Shown here one piece after another: positions 1,199-48,778 of a DNA stretch of 64,000 nucleotides. Below the pieces are notes generated by a model. It ran no database searches and was not told where the DNA came from. It saw nothing but the letters and a program-made list of their open reading frames with translations. Both the position numbers and the translations under genes were made by a program. Numbering within the stretch: position 1 is the first letter of the stretch; the number at the start of each line of letters is the position of its first letter. Origin of the DNA: an uncultured Bacillota bacterium (GTDB lineage Bacteria; Bacillota_I; Bacilli_A; RF39; UBA660); NCBI GenBank assembly GCA_946407495.1, contig CAMJOB010000001.1, positions 9,549 to 73,548 on the forward strand, read 5' to 3'.

Positions 1199-1270
1199 TC
1201 CCTTATGGTGTAATGGTCAGCACAGGAGGCTCTAACCCTCTTAGTCTGCGTTCGAATCGTAGTAGGGGTA
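1199..1270 (+). tRNA. amber suppressor tRNA, anticodon CUA (reads UAG); short variable arm and mismatched 1:72 pair favour a Gln-type identity
   Basis: Manual cloverleaf: acceptor tccctta/taggggt (U1:U72 mismatch, A73), U8, D-stem gtgt/gcac with aatggtca loop (G18G19), anticodon stem ggagg/cctct, loop cTCTAac (U33, CUA, A37), 4-nt variable, T-stem ctgcg/cgtag with TTCGAAT loop; no encoded CCA. Confidence 0.8.
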
Positions 1271-1342
1271 CTTCTTCATACTTTTCACGTCACTAAGGTA
1301 TCGGATGACCTTATTGATTTTTACTGTTTTTAATCATGATAA

Positions 1343-10361: not shown

Positions 10362-12553
10362 CTGCTGAAGACGAAAGATTAATAGAATTAACAAACAGAA
10401 CGATTTCTGATTTAGTATACGAAAAGACGGAACTTCAGAAAGCGTATAACATATATAATGGAAAACGCGACAAAGAGTAGTATAAGTATCTTGAAGATAA
10501 TTTCGGAATAGGTACACCTACCTCTGTCGAGTTTACTCCATTAGTAAGAAAGCACGTTGATGCTATGGTAGGTGAGTTTTTAGGAACTCCTATATTACCA
10601 AAAATTACGTGTAAAGATAAAGAAACAATAAGTAATATACAACGTGAAAAGCAACTTAAAATAAATGCTGAAATTGTAGATTATTTAAAGCATCATTTAC
10701 AAAATTAGATTTTAAGATTTATTACAGGAAAAGCAATGGATGATACTTCTGTTAAAAATAAACTTCAACAAATTGTAGAAGATTTAGATGAAGATTTTAT
10801 TTCTGAATATGAAGTTGCTGCTTAGAATGTAATACAATATATTTTACAAAGTAGAAGAACTGATTTATTAACTAAATTAAAGTTAATTTTACTTGATTTA
10901 TTTATATCAGGATATACTTTTTATAGAGCTAAACCTTCTACTGCAAAAACTAATGTTGAAGTAGAAGTTTTAGATCCAAGAAATACATTTATTGATAGAA
11001 ATCCAGAATCTCCTTATGTAAAAGATTCATATAGAGCTGTAGTTAGAAAATGGTTGAGTAGACCAGAAATATTAGCTCGTTATGGAAAAGATTTATCAAA
11101 AGAAGATGTTGATAAATTAAGAGAAGAATTTGAAGGATTAGATCAAGGTGGAAGTTTTTATAGAAGAAGTCTCGAAGGTGTTCCTTCTCCAATGTCAGAA
11201 GGAATACAAGCAAGATTTGAAGGAACAATAGGTCTTGATGCTGAAAGTAATGCAAATTATAGACTAATTCCTGTATATGAAGTAGAATGGATAGAAACCG
11301 ATGAAAATTTTGTAATGCAGAGATATGAAACAATTCGTATTGGAGATAACCAATCAGAAGATAGTTTCTTTATCTTAAAAGGAAAGAATGAAAATGTAGT
11401 TCGTTCTAAAGATGATCCTGCATTTTGTACATTATCAATAAATGGTTTATACTTTTTAAATAGAAACGATGAACCTTATTCTTTAGTTTTAGCTTGCGCG
11501 CATCTTCAAGACAAATATGATATACTTCACTTTTTCAGAGATAATCTTATTGCAAATAGTGGCACTGTTGGTGATTGGATCGATGTCTCGCTTATTCCAA
11601 CATATTTAGGACCAGAACCAACAGAAAGACTGCTTAAATGGATCAGTTACAAAAAATCAGGAATAGGATTAATTGATACAGCTCAAGAAGGTAGAATTGC
11701 TTCAGGACAAGCTCCACTTAATCAAACTTTTAGTGGCTTTGATGATACTATTAAAGCTCAAGCAATTCAATCTATACAATTAGCAATAGAAGATGTTGAA
11801 AATAACTGCTCTTCTATTACAGGTGTATTTAGAGAAAGACTTCAAGGTATAGAACAACGTGATGCTGTTACTAATATTAAACAAGGTGTTCAAAACTCGT
11901 TTATTGTAACTAAGCAATGGTTCCATCAAATGGATACTATTACTGCAGAATTATTAATTGATTCTTTAAATGTTGCTAAAGTTGTTTATAAAAAAGGACT
12001 TACAGGAACAATTATTCTTGGTGATAAAAGACAGAAAATATTTACTGCTTTACCAGAATATTTCACAGTAACTGATTATGATATAAGTGTTGTTACAAGT
12101 TCTGAATTAATTCAAGACTTGGAACAAATAAAAGCAGTAGTTCCAGAATTTATTAAATCTGGACAATTACCTGCTGATATATTATTTGAAATTATAACTT
12201 GTAAGAGTCCATCTGATATTAAAATAAAAATCAGAAAAGCCTTAAAGAAACAAAAAGAAGAAAATAATACAATTCAGCAATTACAACAACAATTACAAGA
12301 AGCTCAACAACAATTACAACAATTACAAAATGAAAATTCTCAGCTTAAATCTAAGGTTGAAGCACTTAATGAAAAGAGACTTCAATTAGATGCTCAGAAA
12401 ATTCAACTTGATAATAAAGTTAATATGTTTAAAGCTCAAACTGATAGAGATTACAAAACAATTGAAGCACAAGTTGATCAAGATAAAGTTAAGATAGAAC
12501 AGGCTCAATTATACGATAATAATCCATATAATGATAAAATTAGAATGTCATGA
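10358..12553 (+). CDS. portal protein (call by size, position after TerL and C-terminal coiled coil); 3 TAG codons
   Basis: frame 2 continuous from ATG 10358 through TAG 10475, 10706, 10823 into ORF 11054..12553; 731 aa. Confidence 0.55.
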
Positions 12554-15500
12554 ATAAAAAGTTATCAAGTTTCGAAAGTATATCTACCTCAGAAATAAAT
12601 GATAGTTCAGTTTATGTATCTGCTGTTTAGAAATTAAAAGATGGTAGTTATAAAAATATTAATATTCCTATTTCTCAACTTTCTGGTTTATGGAATAACG
12701 ATGTTCAACTGGCTATTGCTAATGCAGATTTTGAGGGAGGTGCAATTGATGCTGAAGTAATTCATCAGGCTGCTTTATAGGCAGTAGATGCTGCATTAAC
12801 AGAAGCAAGACAGGCTGTTAATGCAGCTATCGCTGCTGCAAATGATTTTGCAGGAGATGTTGCTACAGGTAATACAGCAACATAGAAAGCAATTGCTGAT
12901 GCTCAACAGCAATTAAATCAAGCTATTCAAGATGGACAATCTGTAGTAGCTTAGATGCAAACTATGTATGCACAATATTTTGGAGATAATGGTGAAGTGC
13001 GTCAAGCATTAAACGAAGCAAATAGAGATTTAAATACATCTAGAGCACTTTTAACTTCAGCACAAGAAGATTTACAAGCATTAGCAAATGGTGAAATTAC
13101 TCCAGAAAGTTTACATGAAATCGAAAGAACTGTAAACGGAATTAAAGAAATGTGGGGAATTGAAGGTACTTATGTTAATTCAGAAGGTACTGTTGCAAAT
13201 AAAGTGTTAGAATATGTAGACATGGCATTAGCACAAAAGAATTTAAAAATGACTAACATTAATGGTGAAACTAATAATGTTACATCATTTGAACAACTTG
13301 TTGATGCTGCTAATGGAATGTACACAACTACATTAAATAGAATGAATACTGCTGAACAAAAAGTTACTCAAATGCAAGAAGAGTGGGATGTAACAAAAGG
13401 TGAAATGTCAGAATATGTAAAAACTTCTGACTTTAGCGATCCTACTAAAGCATCACTTAAATCAGCAGTAAAATCAATGACTGATAGTTTAATTAAACAA
13501 ACAGTTAGAGATACAACTTTAGATGTAATCACAACAATAACTATTCCTATTAACTCACCTCAAGGTTATACAGTGAGAGTTCCAAATATTGAAAAAGAAA
13601 CTTTCTATTATATGTCTTGGGATGATGCAGAAGGTGATAATGCAATTCCTTTAAATTATCAATTTAAAGTAGTTGCAAGTGGTAATGCTGTCCCATCTGC
13701 AGATAATAATAGTTGGAGTCCTTTAACTTTAGATGGAGTTAATTCTCCTACTGTTGTAGCCTATGACAATGAAAATGTTATTCCAGATACTAATGATAGA
13801 TATTTATTCATTCAGTATAATGGATTAGGACCAGCAACTAAACAAATTGATGTAAAAGTATGTATTGAAAAATACTTATCACAAACACAAATATAGCAAA
13901 CAGCTAATGCTATTGTTTTATCTGCAATTAATAGTTTAAAAGAAGGAGGACAATTAGCATCTAGTTTAACTCTTACAGACGACCAAATTAGTACAGCTGT
14001 AAGAAGATATTTTAATAGTATTAATTTCAATGCAACTAGCATAAAACAAACTGCCGATCTTATTCAACAAACAGTATTAAGTTTCTTAGACGAAGGAAAC
14101 AACAATTATAGAACATTACAATCTGTAATTAAATCTGCTAAAGATTCTATTGAACAATCTGTTGAAGATTATACTTTAACTTTATTAGAAGAATTTAAAA
14201 ATAGTGCTCCTAATACTGACCATAAAATAAATACTGATTATAGTATTGATAATAGTGGTTCAAGTATCACATTTAAAAATAGAAGAAGAATTATTTCAAA
14301 TCTTGAACAAGGACATACATATTTTATAAAATGCGTTGCTTTATCAAAAATTTATTATAAGTACGGAACTTATAATTTTGCAAATGTAAACGTAGATGTT
14401 GCTTTCCTTGAAAATGAAAATAACGGATGGACTAAAGTTGTAACTCCAGATTCTATTAAAGTAGATGTTCCTAGTGATGCATCTTGGAGTACAATTACAT
14501 TCTTCATAGAATGTGCAAAGAATAATGCTAATCCACCTCAGTATTTAGCAAATAATGATTTTTCTGTTCAAGTATTTGAAACTGCAACATCAAAAGCTGC
14601 TAATTTCAAAATTACTCCTGAAATGATTAAAGAAACCATTAGTGGTGATACAGGAGCTGATGGAATTATCCATTAGATTTATCAAAGACTTGCTCGTCCA
14701 AGTGGAACTTCAACAACATGGGGAGAAGTAGGTGGTGGATTCTTAAATCAAGCACAAGTTGATGAGAGTGCAGAAGAAATATGTAGAACATTAATGGGAA
14801 TGAGTACAGGAGATGCTTCTACTGATCCTATTGTTAGATCAAGTGAGTTAAAACAATCTTTAGATGAAATAAAATCAGATGTAAGTAAAATTCAGTATTT
14901 AGCTCTTAAAAACGAAGGAGATGATGCTCTTTCATCTGAATATTTCGGAATAAGTAATAAATCTGGATTTAATTATTTAAATGGTATATCACAATATTAG
15001 AAAGGTCCAGAATTTGATATAACTCCAAATGCAGATGCTTTTGGATATTTTAAAATAAAGGTTCCTTATCCAAATACAGACTATACTCTTCTTTTAGTTG
15101 ATTTAGATAAATATAATTTTGGAGAAGTTCACTTTGTAAATGCTGAAACTCTTAATAGCATTACAGAAAATAACTTCAAACAAGATAAATCACATACATC
15201 TTGTGTTTATACACCTGATACTAATTATCCAACTAAAAATAAATTAAATCCATTACATTTTGAAAGTGTAACAACAGGATATTTATCATTTAAAATAATT
15301 AGAGCTGCTGGCAATAACAATACTTTAAATGCTACTTATTTTTAGAACAATCCTGTTCATGTAAAATTAGGTATTCCTACAGATGTTGCTGTTAGTAACA
15401 TTAAACAAACAGCGGATTCTATAACAGAACAAGTAAGTAGTTTAGAAGAAACATGGGGTCCAAATGGAGAAAAAGCTCAATCATTAAATACAGCTTTATA

Positions 15501-18054
15501 GAGTATTACACCAAATGCTATAGAGTCTGTAGTAGCAGAAGAGATTGATGGTAAATTAACTGGTTACTCTACAATAGAACAAACTAAAGATTTTATTGCT
15601 TCTACTGTTGGTGCAGCTGGTGCAGTAACTAATAAATTCCATGATCCTTTATTTAAACATGATTATAGTTATTGGCATAGAAGATATAGTAATTATCCAA
15701 ATTATTCTAATATTGCAAATATAGTTAGTCCAGCTGCTAACGTATATAATAAATATTATGATAATAACAATAATTATTATCAAATAAACTCTTCAAATAT
15801 ATTAGAAAAAGATCTTAAATCATTTATAATATATGATAATAATACTTTAAATATTAACGGTTTAAGTGCTGAAGATAGAAGACATATTTATGGATTATAT
15901 ACAAATTTAAAAGTAATATCTGGTAATAAGTATACAGCATCATTTTATATTAAATTACCTGCAGTTTTTAGTTCAGGATATACATCACTTATCGATGTTC
16001 CTAATTCAAATAACAAATTTAGATGTTCTTTCCAAAATCTTATGTTAAATGTAGGATTTGTAGATGAATTAGCAAAATTAACTCCTAATTTTTATATTAC
16101 TCTTCTTTCTACAGAAAATTCTCTTGAAGATATAGAAAATACAGAATATACTATTGTTGATGGAGAAGAAGTTGAAAATTGGAGTTCAGAAACTCTTTAT
16201 AATACTCAACATAAAAAAGCATATAAGTTTAATAATCAAGGAAATTTAACAGGAAATGGATTTAATAATGGATCAGTTGATCTTGATCAATTTGGATTAT
16301 GGATTAAATTCGGATAGGGTAATTTATTAAATTATTTAAATAAAGCATTTACTATAAGTCTTGGAGATGTTGATAATTCTGGTATAAATATAGAATAGAA
16401 TATAAGATATAGATGGTTTAAAATATGGTTTACATTTACTGCTGATAATAAGCATATTGTTAAAAATTCCGATACTTCATTAACAAATATTGTGGATGAT
16501 CGTGATAGAGCATTTTGTTTTGAACCTTGGACTAATATTTATTCAAATAAATATTCAAGAATATTCTGTGAATTTGCTGCTCCTATGTTAAATTCTGGAA
16601 CTACACCTTTAAAGTTTAGTTCTCAAGAAAAATCTGATGAAGTTTATAGTGTAATTAGTCAAACTAAAAATGCAATTGATTTATCTATAAATAATGTTAG
16701 ACAAGGATTAGAAAAAGTAGGAATAACAATAGATGCTGAACATCCAGAAAAAAGTAAAATAAAACTTAATGCAGATGTATTAGAAGCTGATTTAGCTGAA
16801 GCTACATTTACAGGAAATATTAAAGCAAAAAGTTTTGAAGTACAACCAGAAGGTAGTGATAGTTCTATTTCATTAGTTATTTATAATCCAGACGATACTA
16901 GTTTTGTTCATAAATATATAACTGATCACAATACAACTTTAAAAATAAGTGCGGGAACTCCTGTTTTAGTTTCAACTGTAGGTGAGGATGTATATTTAAT
17001 AAACTTAACTAAGATTAATAAAAATGGAGACATTACATATTATTTTAAAATACGAACAGATATTCCTATTACAATAAAAAATATAGGATATTCTGAAGAA
17101 TCTGGAAGTACTATATCTACATTTAAAATTAAACCAGTAAAATACTTTTTAGATAATGTTTATAATATATATTTAGAGAAATATGTAGCAGAATCAATTG
17201 TAGATACTTAGAATAACACAATAACACTTGGTAATGTTACTTCAAATTCTTTCTATAATAGTCTTAATTGTAGTGGTTTTACTTTTAAGTATTCTACAAA
17301 TGAAGGTGATAAGTCATTAACTTTTGACGGTAATGATAAACCATATATAAAATCTACAGGAGTTTTAAAATACAAATCTATAAATTTAAAACAAGTTGCA
17401 CAAAACATTAGAGATATTAATTATTTTTCTATTAATAGTCCTGTATTTTCATTAGATTATTCAAGGGGCGGCGATATTTATGATATGCCAATATACAGAC
17501 ATAATTTTAGTCAACCAGGTAATTCTGCTTATGATTCAGCTGGAAATCTTCATGTTACAAATGAAGGTTCATTAAGAATGTTTAAAGTATATAAAAACAT
17601 AAATAGTTCAGGAACATTAATTGATTTAACTCACTTTGAAAATAATAAGCGTTCTGATGATAAATATTGTTATGCTATAGAATCTAAAGATCGAACAACA
17701 GGAGAGATTTTCTATCAAATCTTAGGATTTTATAATATTACAACTTATTTTGGAGATCTTACAAATAATAATCGTTATTATGGTGATATTTATGATGTTG
17801 AACAAGGTGATGGTTCAAAATGTTTTTCAATAGCAGAAAATATAATTAATAATTGTTTTGTAATAGGATGTTTTATTAGTAAAAATCTTAATGAAAATAC
17901 ATTAACTGATAATAATAATAGCTATAGAGTATTTTTCAATGAAGATGAATGTACTAGACTTAATGACAGATTATCACGTGGTTATGCAGGAGCAATAGGA
18001 AAAGCTAATAATTCTTGGAATAGTAAAAAAATTATAGTAGATAAGTACAATTAA
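12550..18054 (+). CDS. giant virion-associated protein (1834 aa) read through 12 TAG codons; function unknown (head/tail fibre or decoration-like)
   Basis: single frame (frame 1) with no TAA/TGA for 5.5 kb; joins ORF fragments 12955, 14794, 16042, 16492, 17485; ATG overlaps portal TGA (ATGA). Confidence 0.55.
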
Positions 18055-19109: not shown

Positions 19110-20456
19110 ATGAATGATACTTTTGTAAAAAATTGTTGCGGATCAGGAATATACGGAAGTCCTGGACATTCAATAGATTTTAGTGGGAATGGTGGAAACA
19201 ATAATGGAAATAATGGAGGACAAACTCCTGTTACCATTGATGATTCAAACTATTTTAAAATAACTAAATTATTTTAGGAATTAGATACTGAACTTAAAAA
19301 AAGACAAGCAAGATAGAACTTAGGAATTTTATTAGAAAATTTCGCTACTACTGAAGATTTATTAGAATATTTAAGAATTAGTGATATTGATTTAACTCAG
19401 TTTTTAACACAAGCTGATTTAGAAAATTATATCACAAGAGAAGAATTTGAAAATTCTGAATCACATTCTAATAGTAGATTAAAAATGGAGTGGAGTAATG
19501 ACTTAGGTAAAATGAAAGCCACTCTTGAAGATGGAGACGTTTATGTAAGTAGTGCTTGGGAAAAACTTACAAAACCTCTTTCACCAACTATTGCAAATAG
19601 TTATTTAAATCATACAGTTAATACAGGTAGTGTTAAAATAGTTGTTACAAATAGACAAGTAGGTGCTGCCGTATATTATTCTGTAGATAATGGAGCATAT
19701 CAACCATTAAATAATAATTCTTTTACATTAGATAGTGGATTCCTTAATGATAACACTAATACTGCAAGAACATTTGTTGTAAAAGTTAAATGTTATTATA
19801 ATGGTATACAAAGTGATGAAGCAACTTATCAAATTGTAGTATCTCCTAAGTGTAATGCTGGTGTTATAACAATTAACAAAAATGGAAACGATAACGATTT
19901 CTCAACTAACGCTACTGTTATATTAACACCTTCTAATACAAAATGGGTTAATAATCAATATTCACTCGATGGTGGAGTAACTTGGTTTAACTTTAATAAA
20001 AATCCAAGTGACAACACAGATATTCCATTTGTTGTTCAGAATGTTTCACAATCTCAAAATGCAGGTAAATATCAAATTAGAAGTACATATCCAGGCTATG
20101 AAAGTGCTTCAGTAAGTAGTCCAGCGTTTATATTAAATGCTAAAAAGACTTATTATGGTTGGAGTACTAAAGAAAATATTACTACATTAAATGAAATTGT
20201 AGCATTTGGTACATCTGTTGAAGCATCTGGTTTGCAACCAGGTTCAATTGCTGGAACTTATCCATTAGGAGTTCCTAGTGCTCCATCTTATTTATGGGTA
20301 TTCCAAACAGATTATTTACGTCCTTCTCAATTCTTTACATCTGCCGATGACCAAATAGGTTGGGGTATGATACAAATGGAAAGTGTTGGAGGATATAATT
20401 GTTATCGTAGTGAAGTATTACAGAAAAAAGAAGCTAATAATATTTATATAAAGTAA
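19110..20456 (+). CDS. putative tail fibre/receptor-binding-like protein (448 aa); TAG at codons 65 and 77
   Basis: ATG 19110 frame 0 continuous into ORF 19485..20456; Gly/Asn-rich N-term then beta-rich domain. Confidence 0.4.
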
Positions 20457-20457
20457 T

Positions 20458-22503
20458 ATGGCATACAAATTAACTTAGCAACTAACTAGTGGTATGTATA
20501 ACAGAGGTGTTCTTAATACCACAGATGTAGACGATATAGATTCAAATGGAGTAAGAAGAACACAAAGAGAAATAAATGCCGATATTTATTCTAAACTTCC
20601 AAGTTCAGATACTGCAATAGCAGGTATAACAAAGGCTTTGTTTGATTCTGAAACAAATGAAATTAAATTTACAAACAATGATGATACAGTAATTTGTACT
20701 TTAGATGCTACACCTTTTTTAAATGATATAGCTATTGATGATATAGCTGTAGAAGATGCAGTAATAGACAATGAAACTGTAAAATGTCTTGTTTTTAAAT
20801 TTAATGATGAAAATAAAGAAAATATAAATATTCCTTTAGAAGATTTATACATTCAATTACAACCTCTTCTTACTGAACTTCAGAATGATATAAATAGTTT
20901 AAAGGATAGTCGTTTATTTAGAGAATAGAACGGAGGACTTAAAACATCTGAAGTTCTTAGAGCTTTCGGAAAAGATTCTTTCGCTGAAGGAAAAGGTATT
21001 TACAAAGCATTTGAACTTCGTGAAGATTATATTCCAGAAACTAATTATGTTTTCTTACTTGTAGAAGATAATGTTGGACAAAATATAACAATAGGTTCTA
21101 AATTATATTATCCTAAGAAAGTTGAAACTACAACTATACTTTCAAAATCATTAAAAGAAATTTATGAAGATTCTTTCTTAACATTAGAACTTGAATCTGC
21201 ATTTGTAAAAGATATAAGTGCTGGTGAAAACGTTTATGTAAAGATTGATAATAAATATGTTCCTATTGAAGTTGTAGATGATTATACAGCTGGAGATACA
21301 GAAATTAATGTTAACGAAAATGCTTTCTATAATATAGAAGATGGAGCAACTCTTTATGCAAATGTAACTGACGATCAATACGCTACAAAAATCGTTACTA
21401 ATTTAGAACATTATCATGGAGATAATGATTATGAAGCAATTAAAGTATATTTTGATTCAGCTATAGAATATAATTTAAATACAACTGATACAATTTATAT
21501 TGAATCAGGAATTGCTTCAGGTGAAGGCTCTCACGCAGAAGGACTCGGAAGTATTGCAAAAGGAGATTTCTCTCACGCATCTGGAGTATTCACAAATACT
21601 ACAAATGAAGGAGAATTTGCTTGTGGTAACAGAAATGTATCTACTCCAAATGTAACATTATTCTCAGTAGGAATAGGTGGTCAAGAGCAAAAAAAATGTG
21701 ACCATTTAAATGCTTTTGAAATAAACAAAGATGGAGATTTATATATAAAAGGAACAGGTGGTTACGACGGAACAAATATAACAGGAACAGGAGTTAAATC
21801 AGTACAAGAAGTTCTTTCTGATGTTGGAAACAATGCAGCATTAGAAGCAAGAGTTTCAGCAATAGAAGCAAGATTTGTACAAGAAATTATTGATAAGATT
21901 ACAGGTGGTATCAGTTTCACATTAGGAAACTTATACGCTGGTTATCCTAAAACAGTTACTGCAACAGGTACGATTTCTCTTCCTTCAGAAGTTACAGTTG
22001 ATAAAATTACTTCTATTAAATTAGTAGGTAATGGACAAACTGTAGAAGAGTCAGGTCAAACTTCTGTTAATATTCAAAATAGTGTAACTGCACCTCAAAC
22101 CTATACATTAACTGCAACAATAGCAGCACCATATACTAAAACAATTAGTAAATCTGCTACTATTAATCAAGTTTGTCCTATTTATATAGCACTTGTTGAT
22201 TCTAACATTGATACAGCAGCTAAAGTAATTACAGAAATTGCGAAAGTAGATAATCTTTACTCTCCAAATTCTCCTCTTAGTAATATTAAATCAATTACTA
22301 ATAAAGCATTTACTTATGCAGCTAATCAAAGATTAGCATTTATTTGTGGACAAAGTGGAATAAGAGTTAAACAAGTAGGAGGTTTAGCAGATGATCCTTA
22401 CACAGTTAATGGAGAATCAACTACAATTAATGGAATGACTGCTTATGTATATTTAACAGGTACACAACAAGCAGGAACAAGAAATATAACTTTTAACCCT
22501 TGA
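20458..22503 (+). CDS. tail fibre-like protein with repeated SHAEG motifs (681 aa); TAG at codon 7 and 20926
   Basis: GEGSHAEGLGSIAKGDFSHASG motif block typical of phage fibre/tailspike proteins; frame 1 from ATG 20458 to TGA 22501-22503. Confidence 0.45.
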
Positions 22504-24363: not shown

Positions 24364-24735
24364 ATGAACGATATACGAAAAACTTTAATGTTATTAAAAA
24401 ACATAAACAAATACGGAATATTCGCATTAACTTTAATATGTATTATATATTGTGGTTTAATGTATTTTGGATATGATTATTTTGGTATCCATTTAGCTTT
24501 ATTCGGATTTGCTTTAGGTTTAAGACTAACTTTATCAAAAGTATTTGGTTTATGTTGGGTACATAGATTATGTATTATTTATATATTTCTTATATCATTT
24601 TGCGTAGCAACATTAAGACATAATATATTTAATATATTAGGCGTAGATATAAAATTAATAGAAGGTTTGTTATTTGGAATAGGACTATTACTTATTCCAT
24701 TAACGTTTTGGAAACTTAAAAACAAAAATTGTTAA
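24364..24735 (+). CDS. small polytopic membrane protein (about 4 TM, 123 aa), GtrA-like flippase candidate
   Basis: hydrophobic segments; KYGIFALTLICIIY ... LSKVFGLCWVHR loosely resembles GtrA-family pattern; size matches. Confidence 0.3.
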   Translation: MNDIRKTLMLLKNINKYGIFALTLICIIYCGLMYFGYDYFGIHLALFGFALGLRLTLSKVFGLCWVHRLCIIYIFLISFCVATLRHNIFNILGVDIKLIEGLLFGIGLLLIPLTFWKLKNKNC

Positions 24736-24738
24736 ATT

Positions 24739-25536
24739 ATGAATAAATATTTAAAACTTTTCGAAACAGAAGACGATTTTAAAAGTTGTCTTGAAGCTAA
24801 AATTGGTGGTGATAATACCGAAATGGGATTTCCAAATGTATCTGTAATAGGAGTAGAAGATAGTAATGGAAATTTTTCAGCAAGTGACGTTTTTTATATT
24901 AAAGATCTTAATAAAGCTGAAGCTGTTCGTGAGTATTTACGTTTAAACGGTAGTCGTTGGATTAATCCTACTGATATAAATATTGTATCATCAGAAGGAC
25001 ACGAGATAAAAACATTAAGTGTAACTATTAATAATCATATGGGTTATAATGGTTATCCTGAAAATTGGGCTGTTGTAAGATTTCAACCATATGATTGGTA
25101 TGATAAAAAAACTAATACTACATATTATGCATTTATAAGTAACGATGCTTATAAAAATATCACATATAGTACTGGAAATATAAATGTTCTTGATGGAAAT
25201 GATATCGCAATAAATCTTGTAAAAGGTTATAATGGATATGGGCCTAATGAACGACTTTCAAGTTATAATCCTCCTGATAATACTGTACCTCCATTTCATG
25301 GAAAAATCATATATGTAAAAGATTTATCAGGACATACAAGTTATAACGATACACTTCATGAAATTTATGAAAGAACATTTAATGTAGATGCACAGAGTAA
25401 TCTTACATTTAATGATGATATAAAACCATTTGAAGCTGATGGTGCTAGTTATCATGGAGTATATTATTCTAATTCTTATAATAATGCAATTGAAGGTTAT
25501 ATTGATTCAGGTTCTGGCTCAGGATCTGGTAATTAA
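24739..25536 (+). CDS. hypothetical protein (265 aa) ending in GSGSGSGN linker
   Basis: ORF track; TAA. Confidence 0.35.
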   Translation: MNKYLKLFETEDDFKSCLEAKIGGDNTEMGFPNVSVIGVEDSNGNFSASDVFYIKDLNKAEAVREYLRLNGSRWINPTDINIVSSEGHEIKTLSVTINNHMGYNGYPENWAVVRFQPYDWYDKKTNTTYYAFISNDAYKNITYSTGNINVLDGNDIAINLVKGYNGYGPNERLSSYNPPDNTVPPFHGKIIYVKDLSGHTSYNDTLHEIYERTFNVDAQSNLTFNDDIKPFEADGASYHGVYYSNSYNNAIEGYIDSGSGSGSGN

Positions 25537-25552
25537 TATTATTAATATAGAT

Positions 25553-25590
25553 AAGTTTGCTAGTATTTCTAGCAAACTTTTTTAATTTTA
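25553..25590 (+). terminator. rho-independent terminator
   Basis: perfect 11-bp stem aagtttgctag/ctagcaaactt, loop tattt, then ttttttaatttta. Confidence 0.55.
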
Positions 25591-25597
25591 TATATTT

Positions 25598-27970
25598 ATG
25601 AAAAATTGTATATTAACAGTAATTAAAAATGAACATGAATATCTTGATGAATGGATACAATATCATTTAAATTTAGGAATAGATTATATTTTCATATTTG
25701 AAGATATAGATAGTGATTCACATAAAGAAATCACAGATAAATACGATAAAGTATTTTTGAAAAACATAACATTCTTATTTAATGAAAAGGAAATTAAAAA
25801 GATAAAGGAATCAAAAATATCAAAAACACAAGGAAATATACAACATATGTATTATAAAAGTGGTATTAGTTATATTAAAAAACAATATAATTTTGATTGG
25901 TGTTTTGTAATAGATGACGATGAATTTATCACGCTTGAAAAAGATAAAAATTTAACTAATGTTTTATCTTTATATAATAATTATGATGCTGTTATATTAC
26001 AATGGAAATGTTATGGTGCAAATAGATATGTAAATAAACCAGATTATAGTAAAGGAACTATTGAAACATTTACAAAAGAAATTACAGGAAAATTACCTGA
26101 CCGATCTAAATCTTTAGTTAAAACTTGTTATAATTTAAATAAATATAAAGAAGGAAATCTTTCATCTCAACATTTACCTTCATTAGATTCTAATTGGTGT
26201 AAAACAGATTTTAGTAAAAATATAGAAATTCCTATTTATAACAATATTTTTATAAGACATTATGTAACAAGGTCTTGGGAAGAATGGATTTGGAAAACAA
26301 AAACAAGAGGAAGTTTTTGGGGAGAAACAAGACATTTAGATACATTCTTTGAAATAAATCCAGATATGGAATATTTAAAAAAGGATTTAATTAATGATTA
26401 TAAAAATAACATAACAAATTGTATTTTTACAATTATTAAGAATGAGCAAGAATATTTAAAAGAATGGATTGATTATCATTTGAATTTAGGTATTAATTAT
26501 ATATTTATATTAGAAGATTTCGATAGTACAAGTCATAAAGAAATTACTGATAAATATTCTAATGTAAAATTAGTTAGAGCTGAAGAATTTCTTACGAAAG
26601 AACAACTTCAAGAAGCAATCGAATTAAAAAAGAAAACAGCTCCTCAAAATTTTTATCTTAAACTTGCTCTTAATCATATTAAAAAATGTCATTCATATAT
26701 AGATTGGTGTTTTATAATTGATAATGATGAGTTTTTAACATTAGAAGAAAATAAAACATTACAAGATATATTTGTAGAATTTCAAAGTTACGATGCTTTT
26801 ATAATGCATTGGGAATGTTACGGAGCAAATAATCTTGTATTTAAACCCGATTATTCTGAAAAAGGAGTTGTTGAAACATATACAAAACCAGCAAGAGGAA
26901 GATTATTAAATGAAGATCGATTAAAAGTTAAAACTTGTTATAATATGAATAAATATAAAGATGGATATTTATTTAATATGCATACTCCATCTAATATTTG
27001 TTCTAATAAATGTAATACAAATCATAAAACTAATTTCTTAAATGAAACATATAAAAATATTTATATTAGACATTATATAACAAGATCTTTAGAAGAATAT
27101 CTTTGGAAAAAAGAATCACGAGGACAACAAGAAAGGCGTGATGATAATTTATCAATGTTTTATTGGATAAATCCAGAAATGAAAGATAAAAAAGAAGAAG
27201 ATTTAAAATTATTAAGACCAGAAACTTTAGTAATTTTACCGTATGTTCAAACAGGAGCACAAGGTAATGAAATTAGATTGTGTTTAAACGCTTGGAAAAA
27301 ATTCTGTACTTTTGAATATAAATTTATTGTAGTAGGAGAATTTTCAGATGATTTAAAAACTGAATATTCTTGGGTTGAATTTATGCATTTCTCTAAAATG
27401 AATGATACTAAAGGAGAATATACTCCACATCTGGATATATTTAATAAAATGTTTATATTAATGAATAAATACTATTCACATCAAAACTTTATTTATATTA
27501 CAGATGATGAATATGCAATTAAACCTTTTACTTTAGAAGATATTACAACTACACATTATTTAACTAAAGAAACAAAAGGAAATCCTAATTCACCTTCAAA
27601 TTATTGGTCTAATAATTTATGGAAAACTAAAAAATATTTATTAGAACATAATCATCCTGTTATTAATTATGTAACTCATTATCCTGTATATTTTAATATT
27701 GATAAATTATTAGAACTTGAAAGAAAAATCAATTTAAAAAAGAATAGTTATGTATTAGAAAACTTATATTTTAACATATTCCCTACAAAAAATATGATAC
27801 AAGTTGATTCTATAAGATTAGGTATTTGGGATAATGATATTTTTAGAGATAAATTTAAAGATGCTATAAATAATCCAAATATTAAATTTGTTTGTAATAG
27901 CGTAAAAGGTTGGAGTAAAGAATTAGAAATTGAATTAAATAAAATAATAAACGATGGAAAAACTAACTGA
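25598..27970 (+). CDS. multidomain glycosyltransferase: two tandem GT92-like (DUF23-type) domains plus a third DDE(Y)-containing C-terminal domain (790 aa)
   Basis: repeats NEHEYLDEWIQYHLNLGIDYIFIFED...DWCFVIDDDEFI and NEQEYLKEWIDYHLNLGINYIFILED...DWCFIIDNDEFL; single ORF without TAG. Confidence 0.5.
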   Translation: MKNCILTVIKNEHEYLDEWIQYHLNLGIDYIFIFEDIDSDSHKEITDKYDKVFLKNITFLFNEKEIKKIKESKISKTQGNIQHMYYKSGISYIKKQYNFDWCFVIDDDEFITLEKDKNLTNVLSLYNNYDAVILQWKCYGANRYVNKPDYSKGTIETFTKEITGKLPDRSKSLVKTCYNLNKYKEGNLSSQHLPSLDSNWCKTDFSKNIEIPIYNNIFIRHYVTRSWEEWIWKTKTRGSFWGETRHLDTFFEINPDMEYLKKDLINDYKNNITNCIFTIIKNEQEYLKEWIDYHLNLGINYIFILEDFDSTSHKEITDKYSNVKLVRAEEFLTKEQLQEAIELKKKTAPQNFYLKLALNHIKKCHSYIDWCFIIDNDEFLTLEENKTLQDIFVEFQSYDAFIMHWECYGANNLVFKPDYSEKGVVETYTKPARGRLLNEDRLKVKTCYNMNKYKDGYLFNMHTPSNICSNKCNTNHKTNFLNETYKNIYIRHYITRSLEEYLWKKESRGQQERRDDNLSMFYWINPEMKDKKEEDLKLLRPETLVILPYVQTGAQGNEIRLCLNAWKKFCTFEYKFIVVGEFSDDLKTEYSWVEFMHFSKMNDTKGEYTPHLDIFNKMFILMNKYYSHQNFIYITDDEYAIKPFTLEDITTTHYLTKETKGNPNSPSNYWSNNLWKTKKYLLEHNHPVINYVTHYPVYFNIDKLLELERKINLKKNSYVLENLYFNIFPTKNMIQVDSIRLGIWDNDIFRDKFKDAINNPNIKFVCNSVKGWSKELEIELNKIINDGKTN

Positions 27971-28175
27971 TAAAGATAAGCTCAAACATTTTGGTGCTTG
28001 TGTATTAATTTCAACTTTACATCCTTATTTAGCAATCGGTGCTTCATTAGGAAAAGAATATGGAGATAAAAATGCTGCTGGTAATCATTGGTGTTGGTTA
28101 GATTTAGCAGCAGACGGAATAGGTACTTTAATTGGAATGATTCCTCATTATATTATTTTTGGCTCATGGATTTAA
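27954..28175 (+). CDS. small hydrophobic/membrane protein (73 aa)
   Basis: ORF track; two hydrophobic stretches. Confidence 0.3.
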   Translation: MEKLTDKDKLKHFGACVLISTLHPYLAIGASLGKEYGDKNAAGNHWCWLDLAADGIGTLIGMIPHYIIFGSWI

Positions 28176-28430: not shown

Positions 28431-28967
28431 ATGTTAGGCTCACATAACTCATTTACATATAAAACTTCAAAATGGTTAATATTTGATTTATTTTCTCATT
28501 TTTGGAGATGTCAAGAAAAAACTCTTGATGAACAATATGATTTAGGAGTAAGATATTTTGACATTAGAGTTAGAAAAATAGAAGATGGTTATCAAATTTG
28601 TCATGGAATAATAGATGTTAAAAAGAAATTTATTTCATTAGATGAAATATGTTATTTCATGGGACTAAATTATCCTAATTCTACATTTAGATTAGTTTTA
28701 GAAAGAGGTGACAAATCTGAATTTTTAAGAGATGTTGAATTTATTAAAAGTTTTAAAAATTTAGATGAAGTAATTATTAAAAAACCTTGGGAAACAATTT
28801 ATAAAAGAAAAGAAGCATTACCTATTATAGAATATTCTTTTGAAGATTGGACTTGGAAGAATCTTTTTAAATGTATTTATAAAAATTTAATAAAGAATAA
28901 AGAAAAAATTTCTATAGAGGATGCTTTAGAAGATAAGTCTACTATTCATCTTATGGATTATGTATAA
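28431..28967 (+). CDS. PLC-like phosphodiesterase (PI-PLC X-domain-like), 178 aa
   Basis: LGSHNSFTY ... LGVRYFDIRVRKIEDGYQICHGI reproduces catalytic His / R-x-F-D-I-R / HG motif arrangement of PI-PLC X domains. Confidence 0.45.
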   Translation: MLGSHNSFTYKTSKWLIFDLFSHFWRCQEKTLDEQYDLGVRYFDIRVRKIEDGYQICHGIIDVKKKFISLDEICYFMGLNYPNSTFRLVLERGDKSEFLRDVEFIKSFKNLDEVIIKKPWETIYKRKEALPIIEYSFEDWTWKNLFKCIYKNLIKNKEKISIEDALEDKSTIHLMDYV

Positions 28968-42900: not shown

Positions 42901-43507
42901 AATTAGGGATAAACAAAGAAGTGATTTAGAAAATACTCTTAAAACATTAGGTATTCCAGTAAATAATATCAAATTTAAATCAGAAACTAATCTTTCTGAA
43001 TATTTAGAGATAAATGATTCTGTTACTTTTAGTACACAAGTTGATAATGTTGTTAGAGAAGGATTAGCATTAAAATCATTCGATAAAAATATTTTAGTTA
43101 AAACTTGTCAAGGTTTGGTTTATACTTTACCTAAAACTAAATCTTTAAATGAATCACATATTTATGGAATTAAGAATAATTCTGAGTATACTGATTTATC
43201 AGCAATCCATTTAAGTAATTATGATGATTATTATAAGATTTTAAATAACTTATCTTATAATGAGCAAAACGGAGTAATTAATTATTCTGGATATTTATCT
43301 GAAAATGGAAATAACAATCTAAGTCCTTCTTATATAGATATATTAAAATTAGATGAAGATAAAACATTAGTAATAGACCTTGATAAATATAGACGTATTG
43401 CAAACAGAAGTTGGGATATTAACAACTGTGGTCGATACAGTGTAACTAGAATACAAGGAATATCTAGTAAGTTCTCATTCTCTAAATTATTAAATGTATT
43501 ACGCTAA
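39926..43507 (+). CDS. large tail-associated structural protein (1193 aa); single TAG at codon 3
   Basis: ATG 39926 overlaps upstream TGA (ATGA); atg aat TAG gca...; continuous with ORF 39965..43507. Confidence 0.5.
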
Positions 43508-48777: not shown

Positions 48778-48778
48778 T

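What the first reader, a model, noticed from the sequence alone, without database searches (positions are those of the whole stretch)
25598..27970. Internally duplicated glycosyltransferase (two GT92-like domains plus extra C-terminal domain) in a phage
Residues ~1-265 and ~270-535 are clear paralogous repeats at protein and DNA level: IKNEHEYLDEWIQYHLNLGIDYIFIFEDIDSDSHKEITDKY versus IKNEQEYLKEWIDYHLNLGINYIFILEDFDSTSHKEITDKY, each with a D-x-D-type IDDDEF / IDNDEF motif. A third ~250-aa domain has a DDEY motif. Multi-catalytic-domain GTs usually build or modify repeating polysaccharides. GT92 is mostly eukaryotic (galactan/N-glycan galactosyltransferases), so a tandem GT92 in a phage is unusual.
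Basis: partly seen in the sequence, partly recalled or inferred. Interest (0 to 1): 0.55.

Follow-up and report, generated by a model that had tools for sequence, protein, structure and literature searches.

The report
Phage enzyme for glycosylating Ser-Gly tails
A crAss-like phage encodes an enzyme with two GT92-like glycosyltransferase domains and one Stealth-like sugar-phosphate transferase domain, and a gene-neighbour pattern seen across many phages suggests it puts sugar chains on Ser-Gly repeat tails of the phage's own particle proteins.

Summary
The ORF (25598-27970, 790 aa) and its internal repeat are real: the two halves share 50% of residues (E 1e-81) and 68% of bases. Both halves are GT-A glycosyltransferases. 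They match Pfam PF13704, and the closest solved structure is the GT92 galactan synthase GalS1. The repeat is not an in-gene duplication. A sister phage has only GT2 plus the C-terminal domain, and GT1 is a diverged paralogue added at the N-terminus.

The third domain is the main news. It is a divergent Stealth-like sugar-1-phosphate transferase: its model has pLDDT 95, its top PDB matches are CpsY and GNPTAB, and its remote homologues hit Stealth_CR2.

The commonest form of this family is one GT plus the Stealth-like domain.

In 14 of 20 independent GT-Stealth loci and 10 of 24 loci with a stand-alone Stealth-like gene, a nearby same-strand gene, usually the next one upstream, encodes a protein with a (Ser-Gly)n tract. 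None of 43 loci with only a GT relative has one. These proteins are BspA-type LRR proteins, major capsid proteins and other proteins of the structural gene modules. In the window it is the upstream ORF, which ends ...DSGSGSGSGN.

My best reading is phage-encoded, possibly phosphodiester-linked, glycosylation of SG tails on virion proteins. This rests on sequence analysis only; no experiment supports it yet.

The parts
25598..27970 (+). Whole ORF, 790 aa, with three domains: GT1, GT2 and a Stealth-like domain
   Evidence: ORF listing. Full-length AF2 model has pLDDT 91.5 and pTM 0.76. Near-identical 788-790 aa homologues P0001-P0003 exist at 68-91% identity.
25598..26401 (+). GT1: GT92-like / PF13704 GT-A domain (residues 1-268). 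This is the module added in this lineage.
   Evidence: Pfam PF13704 matches two stretches. GT1 keeps all 63 family-conserved positions. It is 61-63% identical to the GTs of single-GT proteins P0012, P0015 and P0016 but only 50% to GT2. It is absent from sister phage L018.
25910..25927 (+). GT1 metal-binding motif IDDDEF (D106-x-D108-E109)
   Evidence: The same D-x-D-E-[FY] block aligns with GalS1.
26408..27211 (+). GT2: GT92-like / PF13704 GT-A domain (residues 271-538). This is the ancestral GT of this lineage.
   Evidence: Best Pfam stretch is residues 281-389. GT2 keeps 62 of 63 conserved positions. It is 88% identical to the single GT of L018 and 69% to that of P0009. The clade has 100/100 bootstrap support.
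26717..26734 (+). GT2 metal-binding motif IDNDEF (D375-x-D377-E378)
27203..27967 (+). Stealth-like sugar-1-phosphate transferase domain (residues 536-790)
   Evidence: AF2 model has pLDDT 95.3. Foldseek PDB top hits are CpsY 8j2n (E 5e-9) and GNPTAB structures. Giant-virus proteins named 'Stealth protein' are among the top BFVD hits. Of 91 proteins scanned from the domain's profile hits, 43 match Pfam Stealth_CR2, 5 match CR4 and 1 matches CR3.
27500..27514 (+). TDDEY: D636-D637, invariant in the 91-sequence alignment A5. Inferred to be the metal and diphosphate-binding pair corresponding to Stealth CR2 N-D-D.
   Evidence: D101 and D102 of the domain are invariant over the 91-sequence alignment. 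They are replaced by NN only in L015/P0009 and P0014. The role of CpsY D324 is taken from PMC10668966.
27674..27685 (+). THYP: H694 is invariant and P696 nearly invariant (CR3-like region)
24739..25536 (+). Upstream ORF (265 aa), the predicted acceptor protein. Its N-terminal module MNKYLKLFET...FPNVS is shared with phage BspA-type LRR proteins.
   Evidence: No Pfam or PHROG hit. Orthologues in L014 and L018 also end in SG tails.
25507..25530 (+). (Ser-Gly)4 C-terminal tail SGSGSGSG, in the context ...IDSGSGSGSGN*. It is the only tract of three or more SG repeats in the + strand reading frames of the window, and it uses mixed codons.
25553..25579 (+). Terminator-like hairpin (11-bp stem followed by a T run) between the acceptor gene and the enzyme gene
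   Evidence: Two sites were found where 0.6 were expected; they are the same palindrome read on both strands.

Best explanation
The gene encodes a soluble enzyme with three catalytic modules and no identified membrane segment.

Shown:
- Two GT92-like GT-A glycosyltransferase domains each keep the full set of family-conserved residues, including D-x-D-E.
- The C-terminal domain has a Stealth-like GT-A fold and keeps the E, H-x-D, D-D, H-x-P, R and C-N positions that are conserved across its family.
- Genes for this Stealth-like domain, whether fused to the GT or alone, sit next to phage genes whose products carry (Ser-Gly)n tracts. Most often the tract is a C-terminal tail and the gene is the immediate upstream neighbour.
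- These products include major capsid proteins, BspA-type LRR proteins and other proteins of the structural gene modules.

Inferred:
- In the infected cell the Stealth-like domain uses a UDP-sugar to put sugar-1-phosphate on the serines of the SG tail of the protein encoded by 24739-25536. This would be phosphoglycosylation, releasing UMP.
- The two GT92-like domains, which would be metal-dependent and inverting if they behave like GT92, each then add a further sugar. This lineage would therefore build a chain one sugar longer or differently linked than its single-GT sister phages.
- The decorated protein is carried on the virion. A dense anionic glycan brush there could change adhesion, host recognition or antibody and protease access.

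Origin: the tandem GT arrangement arose when a diverged paralogous GT module was added to an ancestral gene encoding one GT plus the Stealth-like domain. It was not an in-gene duplication.
For: Domains:
- PF13704 scores 93.9 bits against a cut-off of 27.5, in two stretches.
- The family profile hits GalS1 8d3t at E 5e-4 over the DxD block.
- The full-length model (pLDDT 91.5) has GalS1 as its top hit, E 8.6e-10, rmsd 3.6 Å over 242 columns. Tandem GT-A polymerases K4CP and PmHS2 and the multidomain enzyme LH3 follow.
- GT1 and GT2 keep 63/63 and 62/63 conserved positions.
- The C-domain model (pLDDT 95.3) has CpsY and GNPTAB as top PDB hits and giant-virus 'Stealth protein' entries in BFVD.
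- A C-domain profile finds 748 clusters. Of 91 scanned, 43 hit Stealth_CR2, and the ten scanned singly match it over nearly the whole model.

Acceptor:
- 19 of 25 GT-Stealth loci have a tract of three or more SG repeats. In 17 it lies within 1.5 kb upstream on the same strand.
- Counting related loci once, 14 of 20 lineages have a tract, and in 12-13 of those 14 the tract-bearing gene is the immediate upstream neighbour. None of 43 GT-only loci has one (Fisher p 1e-9).
- 10 of 24 independent loci with a stand-alone Stealth-like gene also have such tracts (p 8e-6).
- The tract-bearing proteins are unrelated to one another apart from the tract: LRR_5 proteins (E 1e-99 to 1e-10), major head proteins (phrog_617 at 3e-23, phrog_29 at 1e-9) and small proteins of the structural gene modules.
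- The two loci with a degenerate Stealth domain, L015 (DD replaced by NN) and L022, have no SG tract. In L015 the upstream gene is cut down to 76 aa.
- In several small phages no other glycosyltransferase was identified beside the Stealth-like gene; not every neighbour was scanned.

Sugar-nucleotide supply: family members are fused to, or lie next to, NAD-dependent epimerase, UDP-glucose dehydrogenase, acetyltransferase and methyltransferase genes.

Precedents:
- Serine-linked GlcNAc-1-phosphate occurs on Dictyostelium proteinases, one with a serine-rich domain. A cryo-EM glycofibril (TLP-2) was modelled as a dipeptide repeat with every second residue phosphodiester-linked to a glycan.

Origin of the tandem.
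Against: - Nothing here is biochemical. The donor sugars, the linkage, the order of action and even the acceptor are all inferred.
- The query's C domain gets no Pfam Stealth hit. Its remote homologues score 15-36 bits, below the Stealth_CR2 cut-off of 39.4.
- The textbook CR1 (IDVVYTF) and CR4 (CLND) motifs are present only in altered form, as LVILPYV and CNS.
- Foldseek TM-scores to Stealth structures (about 0.6) are only moderately above those to retaining GT6 and GT8 enzymes (about 0.5). A plain retaining glycosyltransferase activity is therefore not excluded.
- Four loci with an intact Stealth-like domain (L003, L016, L024, L028) and 14 stand-alone loci have no SG tract within the DNA fetched.
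- The GT-only control loci come from more distant viruses, so part of the contrast could be phylogenetic.
- The window's 265-aa protein has no recognised structural-protein domain, so its place on the virion is assumed from context.
- Characterised bacterial Stealth enzymes make capsule polymers, not protein modifications.
Confidence: 0.55

Rival explanations
1. The target is the same (SG tails of virion proteins) but the chemistry differs. A GT92-like domain, or a host enzyme, first makes an ordinary O-glycosidic bond to serine. The Stealth-like domain then adds sugar-1-phosphate onto that glycan, as GNPTAB does on mannose. Alternatively the C domain is simply a retaining GT-A glycosyltransferase.
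For: GNPTAB, a top structural match, acts on glycans rather than on amino acids. Retaining GT6 and GT8 enzymes and the PBCV-1 capsid glycosyltransferase A64R are close runners-up. The literal CR1 and CR4 motifs are not kept.
Against: Stand-alone Stealth-like genes sit next to SG-tailed capsid proteins with no other identified glycosyltransferase beside them. GT-only loci never carry SG tracts. This suggests that the Stealth-like domain is the one that recognises the tract.
Confidence: 0.2
2. The enzyme is a polymerase for a free or lipid-linked poly(oligosaccharide phosphate), a capsule-like or teichoic-acid-like polymer. Alternatively it remodels a host surface glycan during infection, for example to block superinfection or to stop progeny sticking to debris. 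This is.
For: Characterised bacterial Stealth proteins are capsule polymerases. Multidomain enzymes that combine a GT-A with a hexose-phosphate transferase make such polymers (PMC5974469). The tandem GT-A polymerases K4CP and PmHS2 are among the whole-protein structural hits. Membrane-protein ORFs flank the gene.
Against: No export or flippase genes and no GtrA/GtrB-type partners were recognised. The phage is of the crAss type, and no lysogeny genes were noticed in the window. This reading does not explain why the gene lies beside SG-tract proteins in many unrelated phages.
Confidence: 0.15
3. The enzyme glycosylates modified bases in phage DNA, as T-even phages glucosylate hydroxymethylcytosine, to evade restriction.
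For: In some large phages the family gene lies near replication or nucleotide-metabolism genes: PolIII alpha and RecJ in L016, dCTP deaminase/dUTPase in L017, and a nucleoside deoxyribosyltransferase in L001.
Against: In the window and its relatives the gene lies in the structural and lysis region. No hydroxymethylase was seen near it in the loci examined. From my own knowledge, the T4 DNA glucosyltransferases have a GT-B fold. The SG-tract association has no explanation under this reading.
Confidence: 0.03

Closest known systems
GT92 glycosyltransferases (Pfam PF01697; solved example poplar galactan synthase GalS1, PDB 8d3t) and the related Pfam family PF13704 Glyco_tranf_2_4
   Same: GT-A fold. 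The D-x-D-E-[FY] block aligns with GalS1. GalS1 is the best solved structural match. PF13704 is matched well above its cut-off.
   Different: Identity to GalS1 is only 13-14%. The query itself does not reach PF01697. The domains are fused in tandem and to a Stealth-like domain, and they are phage-encoded. No membrane anchor or stem region was identified, unlike the Golgi-resident GT92 enzymes (the latter point is from my own knowledge). The donor and acceptor are unknown.
Stealth hexose-1-phosphate transferases (M. tuberculosis CpsY, GNPTAB, meningococcal capsule polymerases)
   Same: They are the best structural matches for the C domain. Homology can be traced stepwise through relatives that hit Stealth_CR2, CR3 and CR4. 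The acidic pair, a His and an Arg are conserved in the order expected for CR2, CR3 and CR4.
   Different: The match is below the Pfam threshold. The CR1 and CR4 signature peptides are altered. The domain is compact (about 250 aa) and lacks long spacer segments. It is fused to GT92-like domains. Stealth polymerases were described as single-domain enzymes in PMC5974469. The predicted acceptor is a protein Ser-Gly tract rather than a sugar.
Mycobacteriophage virion glycosylation (Che8 gp110, Corndog gp38; Freeman et al. 2023, as summarised in PMC12363180)
   Same: Phage-encoded glycosyltransferases modify the phage's own capsid and tail proteins. Here too, SG tails occur on a major capsid protein and on other proteins of the structural gene modules, next to the enzyme gene.
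   Different: The enzyme families differ. No Stealth-like domain or phosphodiester linkage has been reported in the papers searched here. The acceptor signature is a (Ser-Gly)n tract. The phages are crAss-like phages, other large low-GC phages and small siphovirus-like phages known only from metagenomes.
GT-A/TagF-like multidomain capsule polymerases (CslB, Cps1B, Ccs2; PMC5974469)
   Same: One polypeptide combines a GT-A glycosyltransferase with a sugar-phosphate transferase, giving products that have both glycosidic and phosphodiester bonds.
   Different: In those enzymes the phosphotransferase module is TagF-like (GT-B-like), not Stealth-like. They are bacterial, they make free capsule polymers, and they have no link to SG-tract proteins.
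Eukaryotic protein phosphoglycosylation (Dictyostelium GlcNAc-1-P-Ser on proteinases, one with a serine-rich domain) and the TLP-2 'glycofibril' (bioRxiv 10.1101/2025.09.30.679562)
   Same: Sugar-1-phosphate is attached to serines in serine-rich or dipeptide-repeat sequences. TLP-2 was modelled as a dipeptide repeat with every second residue carrying a phosphodiester-linked glycan.
   Different: No link to phages is known, and the papers read here do not name the enzymes. The resemblance is a lead, not a test.
Chlorovirus PBCV-1 A064R, a multidomain viral glycosyltransferase that glycosylates the capsid
   Same: It is a virus-encoded, multi-module, soluble glycosyltransferase acting on the virus's own capsid protein. 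Its GT-A domain (2p6w, 2p72) is among the structural hits. The multidomain nature is from my own knowledge.
   Different: It belongs to a eukaryotic virus. It has no Stealth-like module and acts on a different kind of acceptor (N-linked glycans on the capsid protein, from my own knowledge).

Membership tests
Pfam PF13704 (Glyco_tranf_2_4, GT-A clan) | HMM score above the curated gathering cut-off | tested here: met
   93.9 bits against a cut-off of 27.5, E 8.7e-27, two stretches. All 18 family members tested match.
GT92 (Pfam PF01697 / CAZy GT92) | Match to the PF01697 HMM | tested here: not met
   The query has no PF01697 hit at E<=1. Seven of 18 relatives match, best E 2.9e-7, and many homologues carry a precomputed PF01697 hit. 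The family borders on GT92, but the query itself does not qualify.
GT92 (Pfam PF01697 / CAZy GT92) | GT-A fold closest to a solved GT92 structure, with the D-x-D metal site | tested here: met
   GalS1 8d3t is the top Foldseek hit, E 8.6e-10, rmsd 3.6 Å over 242 columns. The profile hit to GalS1 covers the DxDE[FY] block. The DxD residues are conserved in both domains.
GT92 (Pfam PF01697 / CAZy GT92) | CAZy/dbCAN family assignment and inverting beta-galactosyltransferase activity | not testable with these tools
   No dbCAN library is available, and activity needs biochemistry.
Stealth protein family | Fold of the catalytic domain | tested here: met
   The top PDB hits of the C-domain model are CpsY 8j2n (E 5e-9, TM 0.60) and GNPTAB 9bgg, 7s6n, 7sj2 and 7dxi. 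Giant-virus 'Stealth protein' entries are among the top BFVD hits.
Stealth protein family | CR2 (about 100 residues, with Glu and the N-D-D metal site); Pfam Stealth_CR2 above its cut-off | tested here: inconclusive
   The query has no hit. Of 91 remote homologues, 43 hit Stealth_CR2. In the ten scanned singly the hits cover model positions 4-100 of 108 but score only 15-36 bits against a cut-off of 39.4. E558, H611-x-D613 and D636-D637 are conserved.
Stealth protein family | CR1 signature IDVVYTF or very similar (PMC10668966) | tested here: not met
   The first strand reads LVILPYV (family consensus LVVLPYK). Only the hydrophobic pattern and the Tyr are kept.
Stealth protein family | CR3 with the essential Arg (CpsY R419) | tested here: inconclusive
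   An Arg (R740) invariant in the close family, and H694-x-P696, lie in the expected order. No residue-level superposition could be made, so equivalence is not shown. One remote homologue hits Stealth_CR3.
Stealth protein family | CR4 tetrapeptide CLND or CIND | tested here: not met
   The sequence here is KFVCNSV (C766-N767-S768), which is similar but not the signature. Five remote homologues hit Stealth_CR4 weakly.
Phage virion self-glycosylation systems | A phage-encoded glycosyltransferase genetically linked to the structural proteins it modifies | tested here: met
   The enzyme gene lies beside SG-tract proteins, including major head proteins.
Phage virion self-glycosylation systems | Glycan demonstrated on virion proteins | not testable with these tools
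   This needs mass spectrometry or glycan staining of purified virions.
Tandem duplication within a gene | The two copies are each other's closest relatives | tested here: not met
   GT1 plus GT2 as sisters gets 0/100 bootstraps. GT2 plus the single-GT proteins P0009 and P0014 gets 100/100. Sister phage L018 lacks GT1. P0005 is a contrast, with its two GTs as sisters in 83/100.

The most novel reading that the evidence does not exclude
Tailed phages of several unrelated lineages (crAss-like phages, phages on 360-490 kb contigs and small siphovirus-like phages) share an undescribed post-translational modification system. A compact Stealth-like enzyme phosphoglycosylates the serines of genetically encoded (Ser-Gly)n tags on capsid, tail and adhesin proteins. 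Fused or neighbouring glycosyltransferases, such as the two GT92-like modules here, extend the chains into a dense anionic glycan brush. This would be the first protein phosphoglycosylation system outside eukaryotes. It would also offer a candidate biosynthetic route for dipeptide-repeat 'glycofibrils' like TLP-2.
Probability: 0.4. Interest if true: 0.85.

Novelty: new variant of a known kind. Interest (0 to 1): 0.7.

Why it matters
If the inference holds, a short portable peptide tag, (Ser-Gly)n, together with one compact enzyme would mark phage particle proteins for glycan-phosphate decoration.

That would extend virion self-glycosylation from mycobacteriophages to abundant crAss-like and other very large phages known only from metagenomes.

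It would give Stealth-type enzymes a protein substrate in the prokaryotic world.

It would also give a directly testable explanation for the SG tails on capsid proteins. Such a coat could influence mucus or host adhesion, antibody recognition and particle stability, all of which matter for gut phage ecology and for phage therapy. A tag-plus-enzyme pair might also be useful for glyco-engineering.

Even on the conservative reading, the work redefines the finding. It is one architectural variant of a large modular phage family combining a GT with a Stealth-like domain, not an odd duplicated eukaryote-like GT92.

Tried and rejected
- PHROGs and NCBIfam gave nothing for the protein.
- A single-sequence search of the PDB gave no hit.
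- The phage genome collection has no close relative: megablast found nothing, and tblastn found one 25% hit in a 595-kb uncultured phage.
- I first read the 515-aa homologues, which cover 65% of the query, as tandem GTs. The alignment showed they are one GT plus the C domain.
- I first assumed an in-gene duplication. The domain tree and sister phage L018 reject it.
- I recalled the meningococcal polymerase CslB as a Stealth fusion. PMC5974469 shows it is GT-A/TagF-like and unrelated to Stealth, so it is only a functional analogue.
- DNA glycosylation and host seroconversion were considered and ranked low; see the rival explanations.
- Literature searches for crAss-like plus glycosyltransferase, GT92 plus phage, Stealth_CR2 plus phage, and phosphoglycosylation plus phage found no description of this family. 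Most 'stealth protein' hits concern unrelated H-NS-like proteins.
- The Freeman 2023 paper could not be read, so it is cited through PMC12363180 and PMC12582341.
- One Pfam call failed because of a wrong ORF coordinate.
- The upstream 265-aa protein has no Pfam or PHROG match, so its role on the virion remains an assumption.
Full report
**1. The observation**

The window carries an uninterrupted ORF at 25598-27970 on the + strand (790 aa). Its stop codon is TGA and it has no in-frame TAG. Residues 1-262 and 271-530 are 50% identical (BLASTP E 1e-81). The corresponding DNA halves are 68% identical over 733 nt (E 3e-64).

The surroundings are phage. There are terminase, portal and major head protein genes and an M15 peptidase. 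The capsid protein at 32680-34098 matches Pfam Crass_capsid (E 1e-19). A relative that is 84% identical at this gene lies on a 174-kb contig with the same gene order, including a holin and the M15 peptidase. This is therefore a large crAss-like phage. It has no close relative among deposited phage genomes.

**2. The two N-terminal domains**

Pfam assigns both repeats to PF13704 (Glyco_tranf_2_4; 93.9 bits against a cut-off of 27.5). The query does not reach PF01697 (GT92). Seven of 18 family members do (best E 2.9e-7), and many homologues carry a precomputed PF01697 hit. A family profile hits one solved protein only, the poplar GT92 galactan synthase GalS1, over the D-x-D-E-[FY] block (E 5e-4).

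The full-length AlphaFold model is confident (pLDDT 91.5, pTM 0.76). Its best PDB match is GalS1 (E 8.6e-10, rmsd 3.6 Å over 242 columns). Two-domain GT-A polymerases such as K4CP and PmHS2, and the multidomain enzyme LH3, come next.

Across 130 domain copies of the family, 63 positions are at least 93% conserved. GT1 keeps all 63 and GT2 keeps 62, including the DxD residues. Both domains therefore look catalytically competent. 'GT92-like GT-A' is a fair description, but strict membership of PF01697 is not met by this protein.

**3. Not an internal duplication**

The database search found 271 relatives. I first read the many proteins of about 515 aa as tandem GTs. The alignment shows they are one GT plus the C-terminal domain, written 'C' below. 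Among the 146 retrieved proteins, including cluster members, the architectures are as follows:

| Architecture | Count |
|---|---|
| GT-C | 113 |
| GT-GT-C | 27 (three lineages) |
| GT-C-GT | 3 |
| GT-C-C | 2 |

Some GT-C proteins also carry a fused NAD-dependent epimerase.

In a neighbour-joining tree of the GT domains, the query's GT2 groups with the single GT of P0009 and P0014 in 100 of 100 bootstraps. GT1 and GT2 are never sisters (0 of 100). GT1 is 61-63% identical to the GTs of other single-GT proteins but only 50% identical to GT2.

A sister phage (L018, DNA 81-89% identical around the gene) encodes a 519-aa GT-C protein. It is 88% identical to GT2, 86% to C and only 52% to GT1. The ancestral gene was therefore GT2-C, and GT1 is a diverged paralogous module added at the N-terminus. 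The first 28 or so residues of the L018 protein resemble GT1 rather than GT2. This hints at a recombination junction inside the conserved N-terminal motif; that is my inference.

No close relative turned up in a pattern-based scan of species-representative bacterial and archaeal genomes. The scan found only 24-39% (best-segment) single-GT relatives in Bacteroidota, Streptococcus, a gammaproteobacterium, a Pacearchaeote and a Parachlamydiaceae genome. Nothing points to a eukaryotic origin.

**4. The third domain is Stealth-like**

It has no Pfam, PHROG or NCBIfam hit. Modelled alone with a 101-sequence alignment it gives pLDDT 95.3. Its best PDB matches are these:
- M. tuberculosis CpsY (8j2n, E 5e-9, TM 0.60);
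- GlcNAc-1-phosphotransferase catalytic domains (9bgg, 7s6n, 7sj2, 7dxi);
- behind them, retaining GT6 and GT8 enzymes and the PBCV-1 capsid glycosyltransferase.

In the viral structure library the top named hits include giant-virus proteins annotated 'Stealth protein'.

A profile of the domain alone finds 748 clusters among 1.84 billion representatives, many of them stand-alone proteins of about 250 aa. Of 91 such proteins, 43 match Pfam Stealth_CR2, 5 match CR4 and 1 matches CR3. In ten scanned singly, the CR2 matches span positions 4-100 of the 108-position model. They score 15-36 bits, below the cut-off of 39.4.

In that 91-sequence alignment D636, D637 and H694 are invariant, and Y549, E558, P696 and others are nearly so. 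Within the close family R740 is invariant and C766 and N767 are conserved.

According to PMC10668966, Stealth proteins are defined by four conserved regions:
- CR1: IDVVYTF;
- CR2: a Glu and an N-D-D metal site;
- CR3: an essential Arg;
- CR4: CLND or CIND.

Here the order of conserved residues fits, but CR1 (LVILPYV) and CR4 (CNS) are not the literal signatures. I therefore call the domain Stealth-like: homologous by transitive sequence evidence and by fold, but not a threshold-passing member.

**5. The gene-neighbour pattern**

The ORF immediately upstream (24739-25536, 265 aa) ends ...IDSGSGSGSGN*. This is the only tract of three or more SG repeats in the + strand frames of the 64-kb window. 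It is written with mixed codons. Its orthologues in L014 and L018 end ...GSGSGSGSGSGSGDYSY* and ...DSGSGSGSGSGNN*.

I fetched 62 loci from viral contigs with the GT profile and added the loci already held. After splitting by domain content the counts are as follows:

| Locus type | Loci with an SG tract | Independent lineages with a tract | Fisher p against GT-only |
|---|---|---|---|
| GT plus Stealth-like | 19 of 25 | 14 of 20 | 1e-9 |
| Stand-alone Stealth-like | 13 of 27 | 10 of 24 | 8e-6 |
| GT relative only | 0 of 43 | not collapsed | - |

In 17 of the 25 GT-Stealth loci the tract lies within 1.5 kb upstream on the same strand. In 12-13 of the 14 lineages that have a tract, its gene is the immediate upstream neighbour. 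The stand-alone loci came from a second scan with a profile of stand-alone Stealth-like proteins. The association therefore follows the Stealth-like domain, not the GT92-like one.

The two loci whose Stealth-like domain is degenerate have no tract: L015/P0009 (DD replaced by NN, with a deletion near H-x-D) and L022 (partial). In L015 the upstream gene is reduced to 76 aa with no SG tail.

**6. What carries the tracts**

Next to the fused enzymes, the tract-bearing proteins are mostly BspA-type leucine-rich-repeat proteins (Pfam LRR_5, E 1e-99 to 1e-10). They share a short N-terminal module (M..YLKKFET...LPNVS) with the window's 265-aa protein.

Next to stand-alone Stealth-like genes they are major head proteins. 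L094 6118-7353 matches phrog_617 at 3e-23 and ends ...ECAGGSGSGSGSGN*. L085 4035-5306 matches phrog_29 at 1e-9 and ends ...TPSGSGSGSGSGSGSGTEGGA*.

In the same small siphovirus-like contigs, several further proteins of the structural gene modules end in SG tails. One of them is the protein in the position of the major tail protein. No other glycosyltransferase was identified beside the Stealth-like gene, although not every neighbour was scanned. Proteins that are otherwise unrelated thus share only the tract. That is what one expects of an enzyme recognition tag.

**7. Mechanism proposed**

Shown: the three domains, their conserved residues, and the genetic linkage to SG-tract proteins, several of them identified or positional virion components.

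Inferred:
- The Stealth-like domain transfers sugar-1-phosphate from a UDP-sugar to the tract serines.
- The GT92-like domains extend the chain, and this lineage's extra GT adds one more sugar or linkage.
- Fusions to, or neighbouring genes for, epimerase, UDP-glucose dehydrogenase, acetyltransferase and methyltransferase in relatives would supply or tailor the donors.

Precedents:
- Ser-linked GlcNAc-1-phosphate occurs on Dictyostelium proteinases, one with a serine-rich domain.
- A recent cryo-EM 'glycofibril' (TLP-2) was modelled as a dipeptide repeat with every second residue phosphodiester-linked to a long glycan.
- GT-A/TagF-like capsule polymerases combine glycosyl and hexose-phosphate transfer in one chain. 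The same paper describes Stealth polymerases as single-domain enzymes.

**8. Weak points**

- There is no biochemistry.
- The Stealth assignment is below the Pfam threshold, and retaining glycosyltransferase activity is not excluded.
- Some loci with an intact domain lack SG tracts in the DNA fetched.
- The GT-only controls are evolutionarily more distant.
- The window's acceptor candidate has no recognised structural domain.

The rivals are ordinary O-glycosylation followed by phospho-sugar capping, a free capsule-like polymer or host-surface remodelling, and DNA glycosylation. They are listed with what would refute them.

**9. Novelty and verdict**

Searches of the paper library found no description of this family, of Stealth-like enzymes in tailed phages, or of phage phosphoglycosylation.

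The component folds are known, and so is phage self-glycosylation. What looks new is the fusion of GT92-like and Stealth-like domains, its modular shuffling, and above all the SG-tract signature. I classify it as a new variant of a known kind. There is a substantial chance, about 0.4, that it is a previously unrecognised protein phosphoglycosylation system of phage virions.

Noticed in passing
window 1199-1271 (+); also 12538-18054, 20452-22503, 43486-48777 and 48752-51466: The phage appears to read TAG as a sense codon. Reading through TAG, but not TGA or TAA, merges fragmented ORFs into long ones. For example, 12538-18054 becomes 1838 aa, matching an 1821-aa gene in relative L014. A suppressor tRNA with anticodon CTA lies at 1199-1271. 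The glycosyltransferase gene and the region from about 24.3 to 39 kb have almost no in-frame TAG.
   Followed up: partly
window 28431-28967 (+): A 178-aa ORF, conserved at the same place in L014 and L015, matches the N-terminal half of bacterial PI-specific phospholipase C (S. aureus 3v18, E 9e-4, residues 17-108). It includes a GSHNS...GVRYFDIR...HG pattern. It may be a truncated PLC-like phosphodiesterase lying between the glycosyltransferase and the holin and endolysin genes. Whether it relates to lysis or to phosphodiester glycans is unknown.
   Followed up: partly
window 27954-28175 (+) and 24364-24735 (+): A 73-aa hydrophobic ORF overlaps the 3' end of the enzyme gene by 17 nt. A 123-aa ORF with about four predicted membrane helices lies just upstream of the SG-tail gene. 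ORFs of the same lengths (73 and 123 aa) lie at the same positions in L014 and L015. Neither gave a significant Pfam match.
   Followed up: no
L015 7717-7947 and 8001-9512 (P0009); also P0014: A related crAss-like phage has a GT-C protein whose Stealth-like domain has lost the acidic pair (DD replaced by NN) and part of the H-x-D region. Its upstream gene is reduced to 76 aa without an SG tail. This looks like enzyme and acceptor decaying together.
   Followed up: partly
Proteins P0004, P0007, P0008, P0010, P0011, P0030, P0044, P0065, P0071: The family is strongly modular. There are GT-C-GT, GT-C-C, GT-C-epimerase and epimerase-GT-C forms. The C-terminal GTs of P0004, P0008 and P0011 form their own clade (93/100). 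P0005 is a true in-gene duplication (83/100).
   Followed up: partly
L081, L085, L088, L091, L093, L094 (small siphovirus-like viral contigs): Several proteins of each structural module end in short SG tails. They include the major head protein, a protein of about 120 aa, and proteins of about 155-218 aa in the position of the major tail protein. A stand-alone Stealth-like gene sits just before the chaperone and tape-measure genes.
   Followed up: partly
L001 (491-kb contig), L003 (428 kb), L017 (361 kb): The same enzyme family occurs on very large contigs that look like phages of exceptionally large genome size: many small unannotated ORFs plus Acb3, PNKP, DnaJ and nucleoside deoxyribosyltransferase genes. 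In L003 the gene sits in a small sugar-modification cluster with a methyltransferase, a hexapeptide acetyltransferase and an epimerase.
   Followed up: no
L015 14383-15018: A LAGLIDADG homing-endonuclease ORF lies within the region where the relatives have one continuous Crass_capsid gene. This suggests an intron or intein-like insertion in the capsid gene of that phage.
   Followed up: no
window 2259-4172 (+) and 8336-10117 (+): Two separate ORFs hit terminase large-subunit PHROGs. The first also hits exonuclease and helicase-loader families, so its assignment is ambiguous.
   Followed up: no
window 25553-25579: An 11-bp-stem hairpin followed by a T run lies in the 61-nt gap between the SG-tail gene and the enzyme gene. 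It could set the ratio of acceptor to enzyme transcripts.
   Followed up: no
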